Source: Escherichia virus TH15
Direction: 5' to 3' (one strand)
Sequence record: MT446392.1
Length of the DNA stretch: 64,000 nucleotides
Shown here: positions 1,807 to 61,108 of the stretch, piece after piece
How positions within the stretch are numbered: position 1 is the stretch's first letter
Layout of the letters: each line of letters begins with the position of its first letter
Translations under genes and position numbers: made by a program
Notes under the pieces: generated by a model
What the model was told of the DNA's origin: nothing
The model's database searches: none
What the model saw: the letters and a program-made list of their open reading frames with translations, nothing else

Positions 1807-4062
1807 ATGCAAGTACAAAAAAGTAGTGGTGTCTCTCAAGATTTTGATGGCCAGAAAATTATTAAAGTTCTTTCCTGGTCATGTGAAGGAACTAATATCG
1901 ACCCGTATGAATTATACGAAACAATCAAACCACATCTGCGCGATGGTATGACTACCCGCGATATTCAGACGGTTATCATCAAAGTGTCTGCTGGGCTTAT
2001 TTCGGTCGAAGAACCGGATTATCAATATGTTGCAGCGAAGGCTACGATGTTTGCTCTGCGTAAAGATGTTTATGGGCAATTCGAGCCACGTTCTTTTATT
2101 GACCAGATTTCTTATTGTGTTAATGAAGGCAAATATGACCCGGAACTGTTGTCAAGCTACTCCGCCGAAGAGATTACTTATCTGGAATCTCGTATCAAGC
2201 ACGAACGCGATTTTGACCTGACTTATGCAGGCGCGATGCAGTTGAAAGAGAAATACCTGGTTAAAGATAAAACCACTGGTAAAATCTACGAGACTCCACA
2301 ATTCGCTATCATGGCTATCGGCATGGCACTGTACCAGGATGAACCAACGGACCGTCTGAAGCACATTTGCCGTTTTTATGATGCAGTATCCACAAGACAG
2401 GTTTCGTTGCCCACACCTATCATGGCGGGCGCCAGAACACCCACCAGGCAGTTCAGTTCCTGCGTGGTTATCGAAGCTGCAGACTCCCTGAAGTCAATCA
2501 ATAAGACTGCCAATTCAATCATCGAATATATCAGTAAGCGTGCGGGTATCGGCATCAACGTTGGTATGATTCGTGCTGAAGGTTCGAAAATCGGTATGGG
2601 TGAAGTTCGTCATACTGGTGTTATTCCGTTCTGGAAACATTTCCAAACGGCTGTTAAATCCTGTTCACAAGGTGGAATCCGTGGCGGCGCTGCTACTGCT
2701 TATTATCCTTTATGGCATTTGGAAGTTGAAAATTTACTCGTTCTGAAGAACAACAAGGGCGTTGAAGAAAACCGCATCAGACATATGGACTATGGTGTCC
2801 AGTTGAATAACATGATGATGGAACGTCTGGCTAAGAATGATTACATCACTCTGTTTAGTCCACATGAAGCTGGTGGTGAATTGTATTATTCATATTTTGA
2901 TAACCCGGATAAATTCCGCGAGTTATATGAAGCCTTAGAAAAAGACCCGACAGTTCGTAAGAAACGTATCAAAGCAAAAGACCTGTTCGAATTATTCATG
3001 ACCGAACGTTCCGGCACTGCCCGAGTTTATCCACAGTTCGTTGATAACGTGAATGACTATACTCCGTTCATCCGCGATAAGGCTCCGATTCGTCAATCAA
3101 ACCTTTGTTGTGAAATTGCAATCCCGACTACTGATGTAAACAGCGAAGATGCTGAAATCGGATTGTGCACATTGTCTGCATTTGTTCTGGATAGTTTTGA
3201 CTGGCAGGACCAAGATAAGATTAACGAGCTGGCTGAAGTTCAAGTTCGTGCTCTTGATAATCTGTTGGACTACCAAGGTTATCCGGTTAAAGAAGCTCTG
3301 AAAGCCAAAAAACGTCGCAACTTGGGCGTTGGTGTTACCAACTACGCTGCATGGCTGGCAAGCAATTTCGCTTCCTACGCCGATGCAAACGATTTAACCC
3401 ATGAATTATTTGAGAGATTACAATATGGCCTTATCCGAGCATCCATCAAGCTCGCCAAAGAAAAAGGACCTTGCGAATATTATTCAGACACTCGTTGGGC
3501 TCGAGGCGAATTACCTATCGACTGGTACAATAAAAAGATTGACCAAATCGCAGCTCCAAACTACGTTTGTGACTGGGCGCAGCTGCGGGAAGACCTGGTT
3601 GCACATGGCATCCGTAATAGCACCTTATCTGCGCTCATGCCTTGCGAGTCGAGCAGCCAAGTTTCAAATAGTACCAACGGTATCGAACCTCCGCGTGGTC
3701 CAGTAAGTATTAAGGAAAGTAAAGAAGGTTCCTTTAACCAGGTTGTTCCAAATATCGAGCATAATAAAGGATTGTACGATTACGCATGGGTACTGGCTAA
3801 ACAAGGTAATAAACCTTATCTGACTCAAGTCGCGATTATGTTGAAATGGATTTGTCAGTCAGCATCAGCAAACACTTATTATGACCCGCAGAATTATCCG
3901 AAAGGAAAAGTTCCGATGTCAGTTATGCTTGACGACTTGATGTACGGTTGGTATTATGGAATCAAGAATTTTTACTATCACAATACTCGTGATGGCTCGG
4001 GAACTGACGATTACGAATTGGAAATGCCAAAAGCTGATGATTGCTCGGCATGTAAACTGTAA
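1807..4062 (+). CDS. nrdA: ribonucleotide reductase large subunit
   Basis: 751-aa ORF (T4 NrdA is about 754 aa); RBS GAGGAAAA; position after td. Confidence 0.93.
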   Translation: MQVQKSSGVSQDFDGQKIIKVLSWSCEGTNIDPYELYETIKPHLRDGMTTRDIQTVIIKVSAGLISVEEPDYQYVAAKATMFALRKDVYGQFEPRSFIDQISYCVNEGKYDPELLSSYSAEEITYLESRIKHERDFDLTYAGAMQLKEKYLVKDKTTGKIYETPQFAIMAIGMALYQDEPTDRLKHICRFYDAVSTRQVSLPTPIMAGARTPTRQFSSCVVIEAADSLKSINKTANSIIEYISKRAGIGINVGMIRAEGSKIGMGEVRHTGVIPFWKHFQTAVKSCSQGGIRGGAATAYYPLWHLEVENLLVLKNNKGVEENRIRHMDYGVQLNNMMMERLAKNDYITLFSPHEAGGELYYSYFDNPDKFRELYEALEKDPTVRKKRIKAKDLFELFMTERSGTARVYPQFVDNVNDYTPFIRDKAPIRQSNLCCEIAIPTTDVNSEDAEIGLCTLSAFVLDSFDWQDQDKINELAEVQVRALDNLLDYQGYPVKEALKAKKRRNLGVGVTNYAAWLASNFASYADANDLTHELFERLQYGLIRASIKLAKEKGPCEYYSDTRWARGELPIDWYNKKIDQIAAPNYVCDWAQLREDLVAHGIRNSTLSALMPCESSSQVSNSTNGIEPPRGPVSIKESKEGSFNQVVPNIEHNKGLYDYAWVLAKQGNKPYLTQVAIMLKWICQSASANTYYDPQNYPKGKVPMSVMLDDLMYGWYYGIKNFYYHNTRDGSGTDDYELEMPKADDCSACKL

Positions 4063-4790
4063 TGAATTATCAAAACATTTATAATAATTTAATATCCCGG
4101 GGTAAAACCCGGGAACCTTTAGCCGAATATAAAGAGATTCATCATATTATCCCAAGATGTATGGGTGGTACTGATGAAAAGACAAACCTTGTCGAGTTAA
4201 CAGCTCGAGAACATTTTATTGCTCATTTACTTTTATGCAAAATAAATCCCGGTCATTTTGGATTAGTCTCGGCCCTAACTTTAATGGCAACAGATAAAGC
4301 TGGAAATCGTATTAATAATAAATTGTATAGTTTCCATCGAAAGCTATTTGCCAAAGCAAATTCCGAATTCTTTAAGGAACACTGGAAAAATAACCCACAC
4401 CCCCGCGGTATGTTGGGTAAGCATCACAGTGAAGAATCTAAACAAATTGTAAGCGAAAAGAATAAGTTAGCTGTTCCATCTACAGAAATTTATCAATTTA
4501 CTCTCGATGGTGAATTTGTTGAAAAATTTAGGTCATTACAAGAGGCGGCGAGGACTGTAAATGGAAACGCGTCAAACATCAAGTATTGTGCAAGTGGAAA
4601 ATTTCAATATGCGTATGGATTTAGATGGTCATATTCGCTTCAACCCACATTTGATAAAATAACTCCACGACAATATAAAGGTGCCCGTGGTAAAATCTGT
4701 ATTAATGACGGGTTTACAAATAAATTAATTGAATCCTCTGAAATTATCCCCGATGGATGGGTCAGAGGAAGGATAAAGGTTAATAAATGA
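4062..4790 (+). CDS. mobE: freestanding HNH homing endonuclease, MobE-like
   Basis: 242-aa ORF with HHIIPRCMGG...N...H HNH motif; sits between nrdA and nrdB as mobE does in T4; start and stop overlap neighbours (ATGA). Confidence 0.75.
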   Translation: MNYQNIYNNLISRGKTREPLAEYKEIHHIIPRCMGGTDEKTNLVELTAREHFIAHLLLCKINPGHFGLVSALTLMATDKAGNRINNKLYSFHRKLFAKANSEFFKEHWKNNPHPRGMLGKHHSEESKQIVSEKNKLAVPSTEIYQFTLDGEFVEKFRSLQEAARTVNGNASNIKYCASGKFQYAYGFRWSYSLQPTFDKITPRQYKGARGKICINDGFTNKLIESSEIIPDGWVRGRIKVNK

Positions 4791-5965
4791 GTACAGTTTT
4801 TAACACCAAACAAGTCGATGTTTTGGAGGAGCCGATGTTCTTCGGTTCCGGATTGGGCATCGCCCGTTATGATATCCAACGTCATAAGGTATTTGAAGAA
4901 CTTACTGAAAAATCCCTCTCATTTTTCTGGCGGCCAGAGGAAGTCAACCTGATGATGGATGGAGCCCAATTTAATAAGCTTCCTGAACATCAACAAAATA
5001 TTTTTACCAACAACCTGAAATACCAATCACTTCTGGATAGTATCCAGGGTCGTGCTCCAGCTGCAGCATTAGCCGCATTAGTTTCCGACCCAAGTCTTGA
5101 TACATGGATTCAGACCTGGACATTCAGCGAGACAATTCACTCTCGTTCTTATACGCACATAATGCGAAATCTCTATACGGACCCGGCGAAGGTATTCGAC
5201 GAAATCCTGTTAGATGATGCAATTATGAAGCGCGCAGAATCTATCGGTCATTACTATGATGATGTTCTGAATAAAACTCGTCAATGGCAAAACCAGATTG
5301 CTTTTGTTGAACTGGCCAAAGAAACTCCCGAAGCGGACGAACGTTTGGAACGAGCTATCAAACAAGAAGCTATTGCCAAACGAGCATTGATGAAGTCTCT
5401 TTATCTCTGTCTGCACGTTATTAACGCCCTGGAAGCTATTCGTTTTTATGTATCTTTTGCTTGTACTTTCAACTTCCATAAAAACATGGAAATCATGGAA
5501 GGTAATGCGAAGATAATGAAGTTCATCGCCCGTGATGAACAGCTCCACCTTAAGGGGACCCAATATATTCTTCGTCAGTTGCAGACTGGCACCGACGGTG
5601 ACGAATGGGTTAAAATTGCTCAAGAATGTGAAGCAGAAGCCGCAGCTATTTTCATGGAAGTTAATCGCCAGGAAAAAGAATGGGCCGTGCATCTGTTTAA
5701 AGATGGTGGACTCCCTGGGCTGAGCGTCGAGATTCTTAACCGGTTCATCGATTACCTGACAGTTTCTCGTATGAAGCAATGCGGTCTCCCTTGTGAAATC
5801 GTGTTAGAATCTACTAAGCACCCGATTCCATGGATTCGCGAATATCTCAATTCTGATAATGTGCAATCAGCACCACAAGAAGTTGAGTTGTCCGCTTACC
5901 TGGTAGCCCAGATTGACAATGACGTCGATGAGAATGTTCTTGCTGGTTTCCGTAAATATCTATAA
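4787..5965 (+). CDS. nrdB: ribonucleotide reductase small subunit, uninterrupted
   Basis: 392-aa ORF; diiron R2-type sequence; no intron or I-TevIII-like insert. Confidence 0.93.
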   Translation: MSTVFNTKQVDVLEEPMFFGSGLGIARYDIQRHKVFEELTEKSLSFFWRPEEVNLMMDGAQFNKLPEHQQNIFTNNLKYQSLLDSIQGRAPAAALAALVSDPSLDTWIQTWTFSETIHSRSYTHIMRNLYTDPAKVFDEILLDDAIMKRAESIGHYYDDVLNKTRQWQNQIAFVELAKETPEADERLERAIKQEAIAKRALMKSLYLCLHVINALEAIRFYVSFACTFNFHKNMEIMEGNAKIMKFIARDEQLHLKGTQYILRQLQTGTDGDEWVKIAQECEAEAAAIFMEVNRQEKEWAVHLFKDGGLPGLSVEILNRFIDYLTVSRMKQCGLPCEIVLESTKHPIPWIREYLNSDNVQSAPQEVELSAYLVAQIDNDVDENVLAGFRKYL

Positions 5966-5967
5966 GG

Positions 5968-5988
5968 AAAGGGCTTCGGCCCTTTTTG
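5968..5988 (+). terminator. rho-independent terminator (GGGCUUCGGCCC + U-run)
   Basis: GC stem with UUCG tetraloop followed by TTTTT directly after the nrdB stop. Confidence 0.7.
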
Positions 5989-5991
5989 TCT

Positions 5992-6402
5992 ATGAAACAA
6001 ATCGCTGACGAATACAGTTTTATAAAATATGCGGAGTTAGAGTTAGTCGATGGTAAAATCCCTATCCTTACTCTCGCAAACAAGAAAAATGTTATCTACG
6101 CTATTTCAGTTGACGACGAACTAGTGTATATTGGTAAGACGAACAACCTGAAGAAGCGAATCAATTATTACCGGACTGCAATCAATCGTATAGAACAAAC
6201 GAGTGATTCAAACAAATCCCGGATGATACATGAAGCTTTACAAGAAGGCAAAAAGGTGGTATTCTATGCACGACAATGTTTCAATCTGTCAATGACCAAT
6301 GAACTTGGTACGATGTCAGTCGAAACGATGTCTCTGGAAGAGCCGATGTTCATCAAGCTTTTTAATCCCCCGTGGAATTACCAACATAAGGTGAAGAAAT
6401 GA
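5992..6402 (+). CDS. denA: endonuclease II (GIY-YIG family)
   Basis: 136 aa from ATG at 5992 (track start 5986 is TTG inside the terminator); VIYAISVDDELVYIGKT GIY-YIG motif; T4 EndoII is 136 aa. Confidence 0.85.
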   Translation: MKQIADEYSFIKYAELELVDGKIPILTLANKKNVIYAISVDDELVYIGKTNNLKKRINYYRTAINRIEQTSDSNKSRMIHEALQEGKKVVFYARQCFNLSMTNELGTMSVETMSLEEPMFIKLFNPPWNYQHKVKK

Positions 6403-7539: not shown

Positions 7540-7562
7540 AAGGGGTGTACAAGCCCCTTCTT
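7540..7562 (+). terminator. putative terminator hairpin
   Basis: GGGG-TGTACAAG-CCCC hairpin then T-rich tract after rnlA stop. Confidence 0.5.
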
Positions 7563-7605
7563 TCTATACATAATGGTTCCATCAACTACTGATGAGGACC
7601 AAACC

Positions 7606-8984: not shown

Positions 8985-9148
8985 TAGAGACCTGTAGCCT
9001 TGGTTGGGATATTGTTAGATTTGGTGCATTCTGTTTTTGTTTTGGGATTGCGGCCACTTTATGTGTTCAAGGTCTTTTTGGAAAGTAGTGTACAAACTCA
9101 TGGGAGCAGAGTATAATGCTCCTACGGATAATAATTGAGGAAATAATT

Positions 9149-14594: not shown

Positions 14595-14756
14595 ATGGCT
14601 AAGAAAGAAGTTAAAGTTGTTGATGGCTCCTCCAAACGCGCTGGTTACAAGCGTGCGTCCAACAAGCGAATCAATCAGGTGGCTGATAAACTTCAGGCTC
14701 GTGCTCGTGCGGTATTGCGTGCCGATGCAGCTTGCTTTGGTAAGCCGAAAGCGTAA
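14595..14756 (+). CDS. small basic protein, 53 aa (MAKKEVKVVDGSSKRAGYKRASNKRINQ...)
   Basis: ATG 14595 with AAAGAGA RBS; Lys/Arg-rich; immediately followed by a strong terminator; below the ORF-track cutoff. Confidence 0.45.
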   Translation: MAKKEVKVVDGSSKRAGYKRASNKRINQVADKLQARARAVLRADAACFGKPKA

Positions 14757-14760
14757 GTTC

Positions 14761-14788
14761 AGGGACTCTTCGGAGTCCCTTTTTTTTA
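14761..14788 (+). terminator. rho-independent terminator (GGGACUCUUCGGAGUCCC + U8)
   Basis: 18-nt perfect hairpin with UUCG loop followed by eight T. Confidence 0.8.
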
Positions 14789-14872
14789 TTTTCATAAAAG
14801 AGTGTACAACAGGATTTGCCCAGTGCATAATGATTCCATACTGAGTTACACAATAAAACACTGGAGAATAAA

Positions 14873-15678: not shown

Positions 15679-15715
15679 TCTTAAATGGGGCGAAAGCCCC
15701 CTTGAGGAAAATACT

Positions 15716-19505: not shown

Positions 19506-19528
19506 AAAAGGGCTTCGGCCCTTTTTTA
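19506..19528 (+). terminator. rho-independent terminator (GGGCUUCGGCCC + U6)
   Basis: Same hairpin sequence as at 5971-5982. Confidence 0.8.
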
Positions 19529-19529
19529 G

Positions 19530-19537
19530 TATAAATA
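19530..19537 (+). promoter_or_regulatory. late promoter TATAAATA upstream of alt
   Basis: Exact TATAAATA 26 nt upstream of the alt ATG. Confidence 0.5.
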
Positions 19538-21968: not shown

Positions 21969-21997
21969 AAAAGGGACCTTCGGGTCCCTTTCTTTTT
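21967..21997. terminator. bidirectional terminator (GGGACCUUCGGGUCCC)
   Basis: Hairpin flanked by A-run and T-run between convergent + ORF and gene 54. Confidence 0.75.
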
Positions 21998-33723: not shown

Positions 33724-33752
33724 AAAAGAAAGGGCCTTGCGGCCCTTTTTTA
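33724..33752. terminator. bidirectional terminator (GGGCCUUGCGGCCC)
   Basis: Hairpin flanked by A6 and T6 between convergent hoc and hoc-like gene. Confidence 0.8.
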
Positions 33753-33753
33753 T

Positions 33754-34620
33754 TTACCAAACTAAATCCTTTTTACCTAAAATATATCCGTTTCTTGATT
33801 CCTGTACTTCAATATCAGGATATTTCTCAAGCATTTCTGCTATCTTAGCAAGCTCACATTTGTATTTAAATCTATCGTGCATAGGATTCTTATGCCATTC
33901 AAAGCCTTCTATCAAAGCCTCTAAAATCTCATCATGAACCCACCAGCCAATCCACATATAAACTTTATTTCGACCACCACTTAAATGACTAAGATGCTCA
34001 TACTGATTAAGGTCATGAACATAGATATCTTTACATTCTATAGTAGTAGAAGGAGGAACTAATTGAATGTCAATTAGAGCTGTTGTTTCTTTATATCCAC
34101 CATGACTAAATGCTGTAGTAGATAATGTATAAGTTCCGTAATAAGAATCATCTTCAACAGTAAGACTAAATTGTTCATCAGTTCCTATTTGAATGCCATT
34201 ACGAAGCCAAACACACTTTCTATGAACCCATGTTGGCTCTACTATACACTGAGGAGCAAAATGGACCTGGCCGCCTATAGGAACTTCTATATAAAGTCTA
34301 GTTTTAAACTGTATTGTCGGTTCTCTAAGTTCTTCGCCTATTTCTAATTGAATTCTATTAGTTCTATACATCTCCCCTGTTGACTTAACGCCTAAAAGAG
34401 CGTAATATTCTCCTTCGGCTGGATAACCGACATCCCATAAATTTAGAGTCCATGGGTTTTCAGAATCCAACTTAGGTATAAGAACTACATCTTTATACCA
34501 TGCTACGTGAATATCATCAGGATGTATATTTACAGGCAAAGAAATCTCGGATAAATCAAATGTAATATCTTGACCTATCTGAGCATAATGAGGACCATGC
34601 ATAACGGCATATAATTTCAT
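33754..34620 (-). CDS. Hoc paralog: novel N-terminal region fused to Hoc-type C-terminal capsid-binding domain
   Basis: 288-aa ORF; C-terminal ~65 aa share YMWIGWWVHDEI...YPDIEVQESRNGYI with Hoc; RBS GGAGA overlaps stop of upstream collagen-like gene. Confidence 0.7.
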   Translation of the reverse strand: MKLYAVMHGPHYAQIGQDITFDLSEISLPVNIHPDDIHVAWYKDVVLIPKLDSENPWTLNLWDVGYPAEGEYYALLGVKSTGEMYRTNRIQLEIGEELREPTIQFKTRLYIEVPIGGQVHFAPQCIVEPTWVHRKCVWLRNGIQIGTDEQFSLTVEDDSYYGTYTLSTTAFSHGGYKETTALIDIQLVPPSTTIECKDIYVHDLNQYEHLSHLSGGRNKVYMWIGWWVHDEILEALIEGFEWHKNPMHDRFKYKCELAKIAEMLEKYPDIEVQESRNGYILGKKDLVW

Positions 34621-34629
34621 GGGTTCTCC

Positions 34630-35949
34630 TTAAGATGCAAATATTATAGGTATACGCCCATGATTATTATTTTTAATAACCTGAATATAGATGTCAGAAT
34701 CAACATAATCATTTAAAGACCCGGTTGGAAGCATTTTTAAAGTATACCAAAAACCTGTGGCTTTATCTATAATTTCTGCAGTTGAACCTTCTCGACACTT
34801 ATCAAAAGAAATGTTATCCCATGTTACCCATGAGCTAGTCAGGTTTAAATTATTATCTGACTTGTTTTCTAAGCCAACCGCGTCATAGTTTGTGGTTCTA
34901 CGATAAGAATATGAAGCTGGCAAAGAGTCATTAAATCTTTTGACACTGATATCAAATGTGTTTTTAGTTGTGACTTTATATTTCATAGAAATATTAGTAT
35001 CAGCTAGTTTGACCGTGGCTTCAGCATTAGGAGAAGACATTGAATTAAAGCTTAAAATAATTTCCCAATATTTCTTAGGTTCAAATGGTTTAAGCTTGTC
35101 ATATAATTCCTCTAATTGAGATTCTGTCAAGCTGCCAATATCAAGAGCAGGGCCTTGAGGGCCTTGTGCACCGTCTATACCATTTTTACCAGGGTCGCCT
35201 TTTAATCCTTGCAGGCCTTGTGGTCCTTGAGGGCCATCTGTTCCAGCAGGACCTTGGTCACCTTTATCTCCTTTATCACCCTTGTCTCCTTTTGCGCCAG
35301 CCGATGCCATTATGGCCCAATCGTCATTTGACGGCAACGGCGGAATACCGGTATGAGTCGTAAGACTAAAATAGGTAGCTCCTTGGTACGCTACGGCGTC
35401 ATTTGGTACATACTCAATAGATATATCATATTCACCTTTCCATATTAATCCTGTTGCTCCTGCGGGGCCCGGGTCGCCTTTAGGACCATCTAGACCATTT
35501 TTACCCGGGTCGCCTTTAGGACCTTGAATACCTTGAATACCTTGAGGGCCGGTAGCCCCATCAATGCCGTTAGTTCCATCAGCCCCTTTAGGACCTTGAA
35601 TACCAGGTGCACCATCCATCCCGTGTACACCTGCCAGGCCTTGGGGACCTTGTAGACCATCTATTCCAGCAGGACCTTGTGGTCCTGGGTCACCTTTTAA
35701 TCCTTGTGGGCCTTGAATGCCCTGGATACCTTGGTCGCCTTTTGGGCCTACTGCGCCATCAGAAATTCCTATAAATGTCTTTGCTTCTTCTGAAGTAGCT
35801 TTAGTTAAAAATTCTAAACTCCAATCGGTAGTTGAACTTGTCGTAATAAGGTCTTCTACTTGTTTTGTATTACCTGCCTCTGGATTTCTAATGGTTTTGC
35901 CAGAAAAGTTACCTCTACCATCATGCCCAAACAATCTTTCGTCAGCCAT
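34630..35949 (-). CDS. collagen-like repeat protein with C-terminal globular domain
   Basis: 439-aa ORF; two uninterrupted Gly-X-Y runs (33 and 16 triplets); late promoter and RBS upstream. Confidence 0.75.
35149..35298 (-). repeat. collagen Gly-X-Y coding repeat, block 2 (16 triplets incl. GDKGDKGDK)
   Basis: Same periodicity; encodes [19 protein letters not shown]... Confidence 0.8.
35449..35748 (-). repeat. collagen Gly-X-Y coding repeat, block 1 (33 triplets)
   Basis: Periodic GGN-NNN-NNN codons visible as CCNNNNNNN periodicity on + strand. Confidence 0.8.
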
Positions 35950-35984
35950 TGTATCTTCTCCAATTTATTTGAATAACACAATTG

Positions 35985-35992
35985 TATTTATA
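35985..35992 (-). promoter_or_regulatory. late promoter TATAAATA for collagen-like/Hoc-like operon
   Basis: Exact TATAAATA on - strand about 35 nt upstream of the collagen-like ATG. Confidence 0.5.
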
Positions 35993-37640: not shown

Positions 37641-37668
37641 AAAAAAGGGCCGCAAGGCCCTTATTCTT
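37641..37668. terminator. bidirectional terminator (GGGCCGCAAGGCCC)
   Basis: Hairpin flanked by A-run and T-run between convergent rnlB and the gene 24 paralog. Confidence 0.7.
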
Positions 37669-40318: not shown

Positions 40319-40978
40319 ATGCATTATTTAATTTACAAAATAACTAACTTGATAAATCATAAAATTTATATTGGGGCGCACGCCACAGAAAACGTGTATG
40401 ACTCCTATATGGGGTCGGGAGTCAACATTGTCAAATCCATCAAAAAACATGGTATTAAGAACTTTAAAAAAGAAATTTTGTTTGTTTTTGATACTTCATA
40501 TGAAATGTATGAGAAAGAAGCTGAACTTGTTAATGAACAATTTGTGCTTAGAGCTGATACATACAATGCAGCTATTGGCGGCAAGGGAAATCCAATTATT
40601 GTTAAACTACAAGACCCTTCATACAGAAAAATGATTTCAGAAAAGACAAAAGCAGGTATGACCGTAGAAGTAAAGCGGAAAATATCAATAGCAAAAACAG
40701 GAGTCAAACAGTCACAAGAGCTTATTGATAAACGTACGGCGGGTGTCAAAAAATATTTAGAAACACACCAGCATCACAACAAAAATAAACCAATAAGCGA
40801 TAGCCACCGCAAAGCAATTTCAGAAAAATTAAAAGGGATTAAAAAACTTATTAAGATTTCAATCAAAGGTAAGACTTTTGATAACCCAGATTTTGCTGCT
40901 GAACATTTTGGCGTTTCTCCAAAAACAATACGCAATTGGATAAATTCAGATAAACACCCAGACTGCTTCAAACAATAA
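40319..40978 (+). CDS. segD: GIY-YIG homing endonuclease, SegD-like
   Basis: 219-aa ORF; [25 protein letters not shown] motif, repeated K..G...S.E linker modules, C-terminal HTH-like; between genes 23 and 24 like T4 segD. Confidence 0.78.
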
Positions 40979-41000
40979 AAAAGGGACTCCGAAGAGTCCC
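40977..41000 (-). terminator. rho-independent terminator for gene 23 (GGGACUCUUCGGAGUCCC + U6)
   Basis: Reverse complement of the 14762-14779 hairpin; U-run on - strand overlaps the segD-like stop codon. Confidence 0.75.
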
Positions 41001-41016
41001 TGAAATTTATTAAGGA

Positions 41017-46352: not shown

Positions 46353-46409
46353 TAGAGTCTCCGAAGTTTGGGAAATGAGGCCGAAGCCTCATAATAACTT
46401 TATTTATAC

Positions 46410-54065: not shown

Positions 54066-54093
54066 ATGTTTTCCTCTTTACTGTATTTATACG

Positions 54094-54116
54094 AAAAAAG
54101 GGCCGAAGCCCTTTTG
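54094..54116 (-). terminator. rho-independent terminator after wac (GGGCUUCGGCCC on - strand)
   Basis: Same hairpin as at 5971-5982 and 19510-19521, here in reverse orientation with U-run on - strand. Confidence 0.7.
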
Positions 54117-61045: not shown

Positions 61046-61083
61046 AGGTAAGCCTCGTTATTGATATAGCTATATTTATAAAA

Positions 61084-61108
61084 TAAAAAAGGGACCCGAA
61101 GGTCCCTT
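61084..61108 (-). terminator. rho-independent terminator after gene 8 (GGGACCUUCGGGUCCC on - strand)
   Basis: Reverse complement of the 21973-21988 hairpin, U-run on - strand. Confidence 0.7.

What the first reader, a model, noticed from the sequence alone, without database searches (positions are those of the whole stretch)
14761..14788. Families of sequence-identical UUCG-type terminator hairpins reused in both orientations
GGGCTTCGGCCC occurs at 5971-5982 and 19510-19521 on the + strand and as its complement at 54100-54111. GGGACTCTTCGGAGTCCC occurs at 14762-14779 and as its complement at 40983-41000. GGGACCTTCGGGTCCC occurs at 21973-21988 and as its complement at 61091-61106. GGGCCTTGCGGCCC occurs at 33732-33745 and as its complement at 37647-37660. 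Several are flanked by A-runs and T-runs and sit between convergent genes, so they can terminate in both directions. Identical 12-18-nt hairpins at distant loci are potential recombination hot spots.
Basis: seen in the sequence. Interest (0 to 1): 0.3.

Follow-up and report, generated by a model that had tools for sequence, protein, structure and literature searches.

The report
T4-type phage UUCG/GNRA terminator hairpins
These are the short, very stable RNA hairpins that T4-like phages place just after genes to stop transcription and protect mRNA ends, a feature known since 1988, and their identical copies mostly reflect a narrow design template.

Summary
All four hairpin sequences occur exactly where stated.

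The window is a T4-like myovirus, 92-96% identical to phages VR7/VR25/VR26. Every one reads UUCG or GCAA on the sense strand of the gene ending upstream, so "both orientations" only mirrors gene orientation. Nine of the ten have U-tracts, four sit at convergent junctions, and four adjoin late-promoter boxes.

In T4 and about 30 relatives, 77% of distinct orthologous post-stop segments have a strong hairpin, against 2.2% in controls. Stems covary and loops switch between UUCG and GNRA. At co-directional junctions, sense-strand loop bias is 39:2. These are the classical T4 C(UUCG)G terminator/stabiliser hairpins described by Tuerk et al. 1988.

Against the terminator "grammar" as null, the window shows 6 identical pairs where about 1.4 are expected. 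Across clades there is only weak within-genome homogenisation. Homology breakpoints are not significantly enriched at hairpins (P=0.14).

Verdict: real, ordinary and already known. Occasional copying between terminators remains possible but is unproven.

The parts
5968..5985 (+). Hairpin AAAGGGC-UUCG-GCCCUUU, 2 nt after the nrdB stop codon (5963-5965) and 6 nt before the denA ATG (5992). An AAGGA motif lies just 5' of it.
   Evidence: (dG -9.7); gene identities from the VR7 annotation
14761..14788 (+). The flagged site: hairpin AGGGACUC-UUCG-GAGUCCCU plus a U7 tract, 4 nt after the stop codon of gene 30.9 (ORF 14595-14756) and upstream of gene 30.8.
   Evidence: dG -13.6; conserved across clades with covarying stems
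14803..14831 (+). Early-promoter-like site (TGTACA, 17-nt spacer, CATAAT) just downstream of the 14761 hairpin. Together the two form a terminator plus early-promoter (PeSL-like) arrangement ahead of gene 30.8.
   Evidence: relatives have GTTTACA at the same place; PeSL description in PMC2839356
15687..15700 (+). Additional GNRA-capped hairpin GGGGC-GAAA-GCCCC in the 30.7-30.6 intergenic region, with no U-tract.
   Evidence: gene order
19506..19537 (+). Hairpin AAAAGGGC-UUCG-GCCCUUUU (19506-19525), 1 nt after the stop codon of gene 30 (DNA ligase), followed by the late-promoter box TATAAATA (19530-19537) ahead of alt.
21970..21991 (.). Hairpin at a convergent junction: AAAGGGACC-UUCG-GGUCCCUUU on the alt.-3 sense strand, reading CGAA on the gene 54 strand. 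U-rich tails on both strands.
33729..33748 (.). Hairpin at a convergent junction: AAAGGGCC-GCAA-GGCCCUUU on the minus strand (after the hoc-like ORF 33754-34620), reading UUGC on the hoc strand. It lies at the left edge of a variable segment.
37645..37662 (.). Hairpin at a convergent junction: AAGGGCC-GCAA-GGCCCUU on the rnlB sense strand, reading UUGC on the gene 24(2) strand. The terminator scan called it on both strands.
40982..41001 (-). Gene 23 (major capsid protein) terminator AGGGACUC-UUCG-GAGUCCCU plus U5, 15 nt after the stop codon. It is convergent with a Seg-like GIY-YIG ORF (40319-40978).
46375..46408 (-). It has no U-tract. A late-promoter box (46401-46408) lies upstream of it, so it would sit near the 5' end of the gene 20 late transcript.
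54084..54115 (-). Hairpin AAAAGGGC-UUCG-GCCCUUUU (54096-54115), 1 nt after the wac stop codon, followed by the late-promoter box TATAAATA (54084-54091) ahead of gene 13. It matches the 19506 cassette at 38 of 39 positions.
61073..61108 (-). Hairpin AAGGGACC-UUCG-GGUCCCUU (61089-61108), 1 nt after the gene 8 stop codon, then a U-tract and the late-promoter box (61073-61080) ahead of gene 9.

Best explanation
These are the intrinsic (Rho-independent) terminator/attenuator and mRNA-end-stabilising hairpins typical of T4-type phages.

**How they work.** When the host RNA polymerase transcribes past a stop codon, the RNA folds into a short G+C-rich stem. The stem is closed by a C-G pair and capped by an unusually stable tetraloop, C(UUCG)G or a GNRA loop such as GCAA. 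Where a U-tract follows, part of the transcription terminates there. The same hairpin at the 3' end, or in one case near the 5' end, of an mRNA slows exonucleolytic decay.

**Variants by context.**
- At four convergent gene junctions, an A-run on one side and a T-run on the other let a single palindrome serve both strands.
- At three junctions the hairpin is immediately followed by a late promoter (TATAAATA), and at one by an early promoter. These insulate the downstream gene and restart its transcription.

**Why copies are identical.** The main reason is that the functional template is very narrow: A-run, GGG, a few mostly purine bases, C, tetraloop, the complementary arm, then a U-run. Short stems therefore recur by convergence. 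Occasional ectopic copying or template switching between such cassettes probably adds to this.

**Shown versus inferred.**
- Shown: anatomy, position, conservation, covariation and strand bias.
- Inferred: termination and stabilisation activity, from sequence and from published work on T4.
For: **Identity of the genome.** The window is a T4-like phage.

**Anatomy and orientation.**
- Ten perfect-stem tetraloop hairpins lie 0-17 nt after stop codons, all reading UUCG or GCAA on the sense strand of the upstream gene.
- dG ranges from -9.7 to -14.2 kcal/mol, and U-tracts follow nine of the ten.
- All 8 hairpin-forming CTTCGG motifs in the window are on the sense strand. The other 35 occurrences form no hairpin.

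**Conservation.**
- T4 has a hairpin at every orthologous junction, with different stems and loops.
- Across about 30 T4-like genomes, 77% of distinct orthologous post-stop 45-mers carry a strong hairpin, against 2.2% of shuffles and of random windows.
- All 10 stem positions of the gene 23 terminator show changes on both sides.

**Strand selection.**
- At co-directional junctions, stable loops are on the sense strand 39 times and on the antisense strand twice (P=8e-10).
- Reverse-complemented loops are tolerated mainly at convergent junctions, which account for 10 of 11 cases.

**Promoter context.** Late-promoter boxes are strand-biased (16 on the minus strand, 3 on the plus strand), and four adjoin hairpins.

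**Literature.**
- CUUCGG hairpins are especially abundant in T4 intergenic regions and stop reverse transcriptase (PMC8948821, citing Tuerk et al. 1988).
- In T4 the hairpin-forming copies are confined to the sense strand (PMC7165471).
- Stem-loops of T4-type regulatory cassettes terminate as well as rrnB T1 in a lacZ reporter (PMC2839356).

**Convergence as the source of identity.** 3.2% of non-orthologous pairs from different clades share an identical core arm.
Against: - No transcript 3'-end data exist for this phage, so termination efficiency is inferred.
- The hairpin at 46375 lacks a U-tract. Those at 19506 and 54096 have only 4 U in the 8 nt after the stem, although 4 more U are paired inside the stem. 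Some are therefore likely to be weak attenuators or pure stabilisers.
- The window has more identical pairs (6) than the grammar null predicts (about 1.4). Exact shared runs reach 27-28 nt, so convergence alone may not explain everything.
- The covariation alignment was centred on hairpins called separately in each sequence, which inflates the percentage paired. One search is the non-circular control.
Confidence: 0.87

Rival explanations
1. The identical copies are true paralogues. Terminator or terminator-promoter cassettes are copied between loci by ectopic homologous recombination, gene conversion or replication template switching, so the hairpins evolve in concert within a genome and can act as recombination sites. 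This is a PeSL-like mechanism extended to late-promoter cassettes.
For: - The window has 6 identical core-arm pairs where about 1.4 are expected.
- Across nine clade representatives, within-genome hairpins are closer in edit distance than permuted ones (2.16 vs 2.34, P=0.0008).
- Exact shared runs exceed the stems: 28 nt for 30.9 vs 23, and 27 nt plus a further 11 after one mismatch for 30->alt vs wac->13.
- Only the VR-like clade carries the wac-type cassette a second time, upstream of alt.
- The same junction pair (30.9 and 23) shares a different identical hairpin in another clade.
- Loop inversions, a recognised template-switch signature (PMC8794818), are frequent.
- PeSL-mediated recombination, with crossovers mapped inside a stem-loop, is documented in RB49/phi1 (PMC2839356).
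Against: - The count of identical pairs across clades is not significantly above permutation (11 vs 7.4, P=0.10). With the window excluded, the rate of long shared runs within genomes equals the between-clade rate (0.45% vs 0.48% at 20 nt or more).
- Both the alt and gene 13 upstream regions have the same architecture (stop codon, UUCG hairpin, U-tract, late promoter) in nearly all clades. The alt hairpin differs from the GGCC-UUCG-GGCC of other clades by only one base-pair flip, so change in place is enough to explain it.
- The whole intergenic region downstream of gene 23 differs from the closest relatives, not just a patch.
- Breakpoints are not significantly enriched at hairpins (P=0.14).
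Recombination between inverted copies would invert 4-35 kb segments, and no such inversion appears in the relatives compared.
Confidence: 0.3
2. The hairpins act mainly at the DNA level, for example as cruciform or protein-binding palindromes for replication, packaging or a recombinase, or as REP-like mobile palindromes, rather than in RNA.
For: - The stems are perfect palindromes with a G-run and matching C-run, as noted for PeSL stem-loops. The authors of that work speculated about a DNA-binding protein (PMC2839356).
- Some variable segments begin or end within a few nucleotides of a hairpin: 14785, 33757 and 41015.
Against: - A DNA palindrome is indifferent to loop orientation. Yet at co-directional junctions the stable tetraloop is on the sense strand 39 times against 2.
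- Loop classes are exactly those that stabilise RNA (UUCG, UNCG, GNRA).
- Stems vary freely in sequence between clades, so no conserved protein-recognition sequence is apparent.
- U-tracts follow on the transcribed strand.
- There are only 2-3 identical copies per genome, unlike REP families.
Confidence: 0.04
3. The repeats are chance coincidences with no function.
For: The shared units are short, and G+C-rich palindromes are simple sequences.
Against: - None is expected in shuffles.
- All lie just after stop codons.
- Hairpins occupy the same positions in 77% of orthologous segments, against 2.2% of controls.
Confidence: 0.01

Closest known systems
C(UUCG)G hairpins of bacteriophage T4 intercistronic regions (Tuerk et al. 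1988, PNAS 85:1364; cited in PMC8948821 and PMC7165471)
   Same: - The same phage group.
- The same motif: a C-G closing pair around UUCG with flanking complementary arms.
- The same intergenic, sense-strand-only distribution.
- T4 itself has hairpins at every orthologous junction.
   Different: - Stem sequences, and often the loop class, differ from T4 at the same junction. For example, nrdB->denA and wac->13 are GCAA in T4 but UUCG here, and hoc is UUCG in T4 but GCAA here.
- This genome uses shorter, simpler stems and so shows more exact reuse.
Canonical E. coli intrinsic terminators, including bidirectional terminators at convergent genes
   Same: - G+C-rich stem, a 4-nt loop and a 3' U-tract.
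- A-tract and U-tract symmetry at the four convergent junctions.
- The phage relies on the host RNA polymerase (PMC2988021).
   Different: - Six sites lie inside co-directional gene strings and probably only attenuate transcription or stabilise RNA.
- One site lacks a U-tract altogether.
PeSL (promoter-early stem-loop) cassettes of T4-type phages (Arbiol, Comeau, Krisch et al. 2010, PMC2839356)
   Same: - Stem-loops with a G-run and matching C-run next to promoters, in intergenic regions of T4-type genomes.
- Shown to terminate transcription.
- Proposed and shown to mediate recombination.
- The site at 14761-14831 has the layout of a stem-loop upstream of an early promoter.
   Different: - PeSLs share about 100 bp of similarity and cluster in hyperplastic regions around ORFans. 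Here identity is limited to 20-39 nt.
- Most sites flank conserved core genes.
- Three are paired with late rather than early promoters.
- No recombination products were observed.
REP/BIME repetitive extragenic palindromes of enterobacteria
   Same: Short intergenic palindromes at gene 3' ends that can stabilise upstream mRNA and attenuate transcription.
   Different: - REPs are high-copy families with conserved sequence, mobilised by RAYT transposases.
- These hairpins have 2-3 identical copies, vary freely in stem sequence between relatives, and no transposase was looked for here.

Membership tests
Intrinsic (Rho-independent) terminator | G+C-rich stem-loop in the transcript | tested here: met
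   Stems of 7-9 bp with 4-5 G-C pairs, dG from -9.7 to -14.2 kcal/mol.
Intrinsic (Rho-independent) terminator | U-rich tract immediately 3' of the stem | tested here: met
   Nine of the ten have at least 4 U in the 8 nt after the stem, in addition to U residues paired inside the stem. The hairpin at 46375-46392 does not.
Intrinsic (Rho-independent) terminator | Located downstream of a coding region on its sense strand | tested here: met
   All lie 0-17 nt after a stop codon, with the stable loop on that gene's sense strand.
Intrinsic (Rho-independent) terminator | Transcript 3' ends or termination activity at the site | not testable with these tools
   No RNA data are available for this phage, and no genome-wide 3'-end map of T4 was found in the literature searches.
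T4 C(UUCG)G hyperstable hairpins (Tuerk 1988) | CUUCGG with flanking complementary arms | tested here: met
   Eight sites fit: 5968, 14761, 19506, 21970, 40982, 46375, 54096 and 61089. The two GCAA sites (33729, 37645) belong instead to the GNRA class.
T4 C(UUCG)G hyperstable hairpins (Tuerk 1988) | Intergenic and on the sense strand only | tested here: met
   All 8 hairpin-forming CTTCGG motifs are on the sense strand, and none of the 35 other occurrences forms a hairpin. The same pattern is reported for T4 in PMC7165471.
T4 C(UUCG)G hyperstable hairpins (Tuerk 1988) | Occurs in a T4-type phage at positions shared with T4 | tested here: met
   The window is 92-96% identical to Gaprivervirus phages, and T4 has a hairpin at each orthologous junction.
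PeSL regulatory cassette (Arbiol 2010) | Strong sigma-70-like early promoter combined with a stem-loop in one intergenic cassette | tested here: inconclusive
   Only 14761-14831 pairs a stem-loop with an early-promoter-like site. Three other sites pair with late promoters, and the rest have no adjacent promoter.
PeSL regulatory cassette (Arbiol 2010) | About 100 bp of sequence conservation between copies in one genome | tested here: not met
   The longest exact shared runs are 20-28 nt. The best pair matches at 38 of 39 positions and then diverges.
PeSL regulatory cassette (Arbiol 2010) | Recombination between copies (indels bounded by cassettes, mini-circles) | tested here: inconclusive
   Breakpoints fall at 5 of 12 hairpin-bearing gene ends, against 11 of 55 others (P=0.14). 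Mini-circles cannot be tested here.
REP-like mobile palindromes | High-copy family with conserved sequence | tested here: not met
   There are 2-3 identical copies per family in 64 kb, and the sequence at orthologous sites varies freely between relatives.

The most novel reading that the evidence does not exclude
Terminator cassettes of T4-like phages do not evolve independently. They are occasionally overwritten from one another by ectopic conversion or template switching, including a terminator plus late-promoter unit copied from wac->13 to the region upstream of alt in the VR-like clade. Their palindromes also flip frequently. Flipped loops survive mainly at convergent junctions and are purged at co-directional ones, which would be a natural experiment showing that selection acts on tetraloop identity in the RNA.
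Probability: 0.3. Interest if true: 0.4.

Novelty: already known. Interest (0 to 1): 0.15.

Why it matters
The finding mainly serves annotation. It marks transcription-unit boundaries, bidirectional terminators and terminator-promoter insulators in an unannotated T4-like genome, and it provides a set of compact natural terminators with graded stems.

It does not open a new question. C(UUCG)G hairpins were discovered in T4, and stem-loop cassettes as recombination sites are already published for T4-type phages.

The modest added value is comparative:
- Hairpin positions are conserved while stems and loop classes turn over.
- Loop orientation is under strand-specific selection.
- There is a weak signal of within-genome homogenisation that larger genome sets could test.

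Tried and rejected
- **Rfam scan of the whole window at gathering thresholds:** no family matched. This is expected for generic terminators.
- **T4 RefSeq record:** it carries no terminator features, so the orthologous junctions were read directly.
- **Primary sources not held:** the T4 genome review (PMC150520) and Tuerk et al. 1988 (PMC279771, PubMed 2449689) could not be read. Their content is cited through PMC8948821 and PMC7165471.
- **Genome-wide T4 3'-end mapping:** literature searches found none.
- **Patch conversion of the gene 23 terminator from the 30.9 terminator:** rejected as stated. The whole intergenic region differs from the closest relatives, not just a patch. The same allele, 100% identical over the hairpin and gene 23 end, occurs in another phage that lacks the seg-like insert.
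- **The 38/39 identity of 30->alt and wac->13 as proof of copying:** weakened. Both junctions share the same functional architecture in nearly all clades, and the alt hairpin is one base-pair flip away from the form in other clades.
- **Breakpoint enrichment at hairpins:** there is a trend only (odds ratio 2.9, P=0.14).
- **tRNA scan:** no tRNA genes found.

Full report
**1. The observation**

The flagged site 14761-14788 is an 8-bp stem (AGGGACTC/GAGTCCCT) with a TTCG loop, followed by TTTTTTTATT.

- A further UUCG hairpin lies at 46375-46392 on the minus strand.
- A GAAA-capped hairpin lies at 15687-15700.

The fourth "family" (GGGCCTTGCGGCCC) is not UUCG-type. On the sense strand of the gene it follows, it reads GCAA, a GNRA tetraloop.

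**2. What the window is**

The window is a T4-like myovirus, 92-96% identical to the Gaprivervirus phages VR7, VR25 and VR26. It lies in reverse orientation relative to those records. Gene identities were transferred from the VR7 and T4 annotations.
- Plus strand, about 1-22000: early genes (td, nrdA, nrdB, denA, rnlA ... 30.9-30.1, 30, alt).
- Minus strand, most of the rest: late structural genes (54, 48, 29 ... 24, 23 ... 20, 19, 18 ... 13, wac, 12-7).

**3. Anatomy of the ten main hairpins**

Each lies 0-17 nt after a stop codon and reads UUCG or GCAA on the sense strand of that gene.

| Site | Strand | Junction | Loop (sense) | Notes |
|---|---|---|---|---|
| 5968-5985 | + | nrdB -> denA | UUCG | 6 nt before the denA ATG |
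| 14761-14780 | + | 30.9 -> 30.8 | UUCG | early-promoter-like site at 14803-14831 |
| 19506-19525 | + | 30 -> alt | UUCG | late box TATAAATA 4 nt downstream |
| 21970-21991 | both | alt.-3 / 54 | UUCG (alt.-3) | convergent |
| 33729-33748 | both | hoc / hoc-like ORF | GCAA (minus strand) | convergent |
| 37645-37662 | both | rnlB / 24(2) | GCAA (rnlB) | convergent |
| 40982-41001 | - | end of gene 23 | UUCG | convergent with a seg-like ORF |
| 46375-46392 | - | 19 -> 20 | UUCG | no U-tract; late box upstream |
| 54096-54115 | - | wac -> 13 | UUCG | late box 4 nt downstream |
| 61089-61108 | - | 8 -> 9 | UUCG | late box 8 nt downstream |

- Predicted stabilities range from -9.7 to -14.2 kcal/mol.
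- Nine of the ten are followed by a U-rich tail.
- Because 46375 lacks a U-tract and follows a late-promoter box, it would sit near the 5' end of the gene 20 late transcript.
- TATAAATA boxes are strongly strand-biased (16 on the minus strand, 3 on the plus strand), as expected for late genes.

"Both orientations" is therefore a DNA-strand description only. On the RNA, all copies have the same orientation.

**4. Comparative evidence**

T4 has a hairpin at every orthologous junction, but with different stems and often a different loop class:
- nrdB->denA and wac->13 are GCAA in T4.
- hoc is UUCG.
- 19->20 and rnlB are GAAA.
- 8->9 is CAUG.

I fetched about 130 loci from T4-like contigs around genes 23, 30 and 10. 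I located each junction by the C-terminus of the upstream protein and called the strongest hairpin after the stop codon.
- 77% of the 248 distinct orthologous 45-nt post-stop segments carry a strong hairpin, against 2.2% of shuffled versions and 2.2% of random 45-nt windows.
- Stems change by compensatory substitution. In a loop-centred alignment of 29 distinct gene 23 terminators, all 10 stem positions show changes on both sides, with 72 such cells against 17 in shuffles.
- That alignment was built from hairpins called separately in each sequence, so its percentage paired is partly circular. One search is the independent control.
- At co-directional junctions, 39 distinct hairpins have UUCG, UNCG or GNRA on the sense strand and 2 have the reverse complement (P=8e-10).
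- In the window, all 8 hairpin-forming CTTCGG motifs are on the sense strand.

This strand specificity argues for function in RNA rather than DNA.

**5. Relation to what is known**

This is the classical T4 phenomenon.
- CUUCGG hairpins were described as "especially abundant in T4", predominantly intergenic, and able to stop reverse transcriptase (PMC8948821, citing Tuerk et al. 1988).
- A later analysis of the T4 genome found that hairpin-forming CTTCGG occurs only on the sense strand (PMC7165471).
- Intrinsic terminators are a hairpin followed by a U-rich stretch, and T4 uses the host RNA polymerase (PMC2988021).
- The stem-loops of T4-type promoter-stem-loop cassettes (PeSLs) reduce lacZ expression about as well as the rrnB T1 terminator (PMC2839356).
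- From my own knowledge, not checked here: the statistical analysis of E. coli terminators by d'Aubenton Carafa and colleagues (1990) also reported over-representation of UUCG and GNRA-type tetraloops.
- Rfam has no model for such generic elements, and the scan found none.

**6. Are the identical copies a family?**

Random shuffling is the wrong null, because all these hairpins follow one narrow template: A-run, GGG, a few mostly purine bases, C, tetraloop, the complement, then a U-run.

*Identical core arms.*
- Using one genome from each of nine clades, 3.2% of non-orthologous pairs from different clades already have identical core arms.
- That predicts about 1.4 identical pairs among the window's 45. 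Six are observed (Poisson P about 0.004). This is post hoc, since the window was flagged for this very property.

*Across all nine representatives.*
- The number of identical within-genome pairs is not significantly above permutation (11 vs 7.4, P=0.10).
- Within-genome hairpins are slightly closer in edit distance (2.16 vs 2.34, P=0.0008).

*Long shared runs.*
- 28 nt for 30.9 vs 23.
- 27 nt for 30 vs wac, continuing for 11 nt after one mismatch through the late-promoter box.
- With the window excluded, long runs are no more frequent within genomes than between clades.

*Details pointing each way.*
- Only the VR-like clade carries the wac-type cassette a second time, upstream of alt. In another clade the same junction pair (30.9 and 23) shares a different identical hairpin. 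Both fit occasional ectopic copying.
- Against copying, the regions upstream of alt and of gene 13 have the same architecture (stop codon, UUCG hairpin, U-tract, late promoter) in nearly every clade. The alt hairpin here differs from the GGCC-UUCG-GGCC of T4 and the JS98-like phages by a single base-pair flip. Convergence within a tight template is therefore sufficient.

I judge copying possible (about 0.3) but unproven.

**7. Recombination hot spots**

I aligned the window to six close relatives and clustered the ends of homology blocks.
- Some boundaries abut hairpins: 14785, 19503, 33757 and 41015.
- Gene ends with a hairpin are breakpoints in 5 of 12 cases, against 11 of 55 without one (odds ratio 2.9, P=0.14).
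- Six hairpins lie inside uninterrupted homology with the six closest relatives compared.
- Mosaic boundaries fall at gene ends in any case.
- The segment next to the gene 23 terminator is a Seg-like GIY-YIG homing-endonuclease gene, in the position of T4 segD. The hairpin and gene 23 end occur 100% identical in a phage without this insert. The insert therefore landed beside an existing terminator rather than being delivered by hairpin recombination.
Recombination between inverted copies would invert 4-35 kb, and no such inversion is seen in the relatives compared.

The idea has a real precedent in PeSLs, where crossovers were mapped even within a stem-loop (PMC2839356). But those cassettes share about 100 bp.

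**8. Verdict**

- The terminator reading is supported by anatomy, conservation, covariation and strand bias, although termination activity itself is inferred.
- The "both orientations" point is trivial.
- The hot-spot idea is not supported by the breakpoint data.

The feature is a textbook property of T4-type phages, so novelty is "already known" and interest is low. The most novel reading not excluded is concerted evolution and frequent flipping of terminator palindromes.

Noticed in passing
L005/L018 (hoc junction), L010/L039 (rnlB-24), L084/L086 and L093/L096 (alt.-3/54), L102/L111 (30.9->30.8), L025/L053 and L021/L045 (hoc): Between close relatives with identical stems, the loop is often reverse-complemented: gcaa/ttgc, gtaa/ttac, gaaa/tttc, gtga/tcac, ttcg/cgaa and caag/cttg. 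Ten of the 11 such pairs are at convergent junctions (Fisher P=0.05). GNRA loops flip freely there (16 vs 15) but UUCG almost never does (27 vs 1). Loop inversion is a known template-switch signature (PMC8794818), but I found no description of it for phage terminators.
   Followed up: partly
window 5963-5994; L004 (T4 nrdB-denA junction); L105: The nrdB->denA hairpin sits between an AAGGA(G) Shine-Dalgarno-like motif and the denA AUG. The two are 23-24 nt apart unfolded and about 5-7 nt apart if the hairpin forms, in the window, in T4 and in a third clade. This may be another "split Shine-Dalgarno" case like T4 genes 38 and 25 (PMC3014915).
   Followed up: partly
window 40319-40978 (+): A 219-aa ORF with a SegE-type GIY-YIG domain (E=1.5e-5, just above the Pfam cut-off) and a weak C-terminal helix-turn-helix match. 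It lies between genes 24 and 23, where T4 has segD. Its DNA has no near match in the phage collection, and the nearest relatives have a different small ORF there.
   Followed up: partly
window 4062-4790 (+): A 242-aa ORF with a NUMOD1 match (above the Pfam cut-off) and a weak HNH match (below it), lying between nrdA and nrdB. It is absent from VR7 at this position, and T4 has mobE here. It is likely a mobile homing-endonuclease gene.
   Followed up: partly
window 14758-14785 vs 40977-41004; L098/L017 and L097/L013 (IMG/VR 2974666281 and 2974737508): The same two junctions (30.9->30.8 and the gene 23 end) share an identical hairpin in two clades, with different sequences: a 28-nt run around GGGACTC in the window and a 25-nt run around GGGAGAC in the other clade. 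This could be ectopic conversion between terminators or coincidence.
   Followed up: partly
window 46375-46408 (-): Here the late-promoter box TATAAATA precedes the UUCG hairpin, and no U-tract follows. The hairpin would therefore lie within a few nucleotides of the 5' end of the gene 20 late mRNA. Several other clades share this layout, whereas T4 has the promoter after the hairpin.
   Followed up: partly
window 7540-7574 (+) and 9089-9122 (+): Two hairpins overlap early-promoter-like sites. AAGGGG-tgtacaag-CCCCTT, after rnlA, has a -35-like TGTACA in its loop. GGAGCA-gagtataa-TGCTCC overlaps a TATAAT -10 box. These arrangements match those described for PeSL cassettes.
   Followed up: no
window 33758-35992: This variable segment is absent from, or replaced in, the closest relatives. 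It is bounded on the left by the 33729-33748 hairpin. It holds a hoc-like ORF (33754-34620, no Pfam hit) and a collagen-triple-helix-repeat ORF (34630-35949, Pfam Collagen E=3e-26).
   Followed up: no
L112 (VR26, 8->9 junction) and L080 (VR26, 30->alt junction): VR26 provides natural point variants of two of these hairpins. Its 8->9 hairpin has loop UUUG instead of UUCG, and its gene 30 hairpin has a stem change (GCCCTTTT to GCCTTTTT). These are ready-made comparators for termination assays.
   Followed up: no
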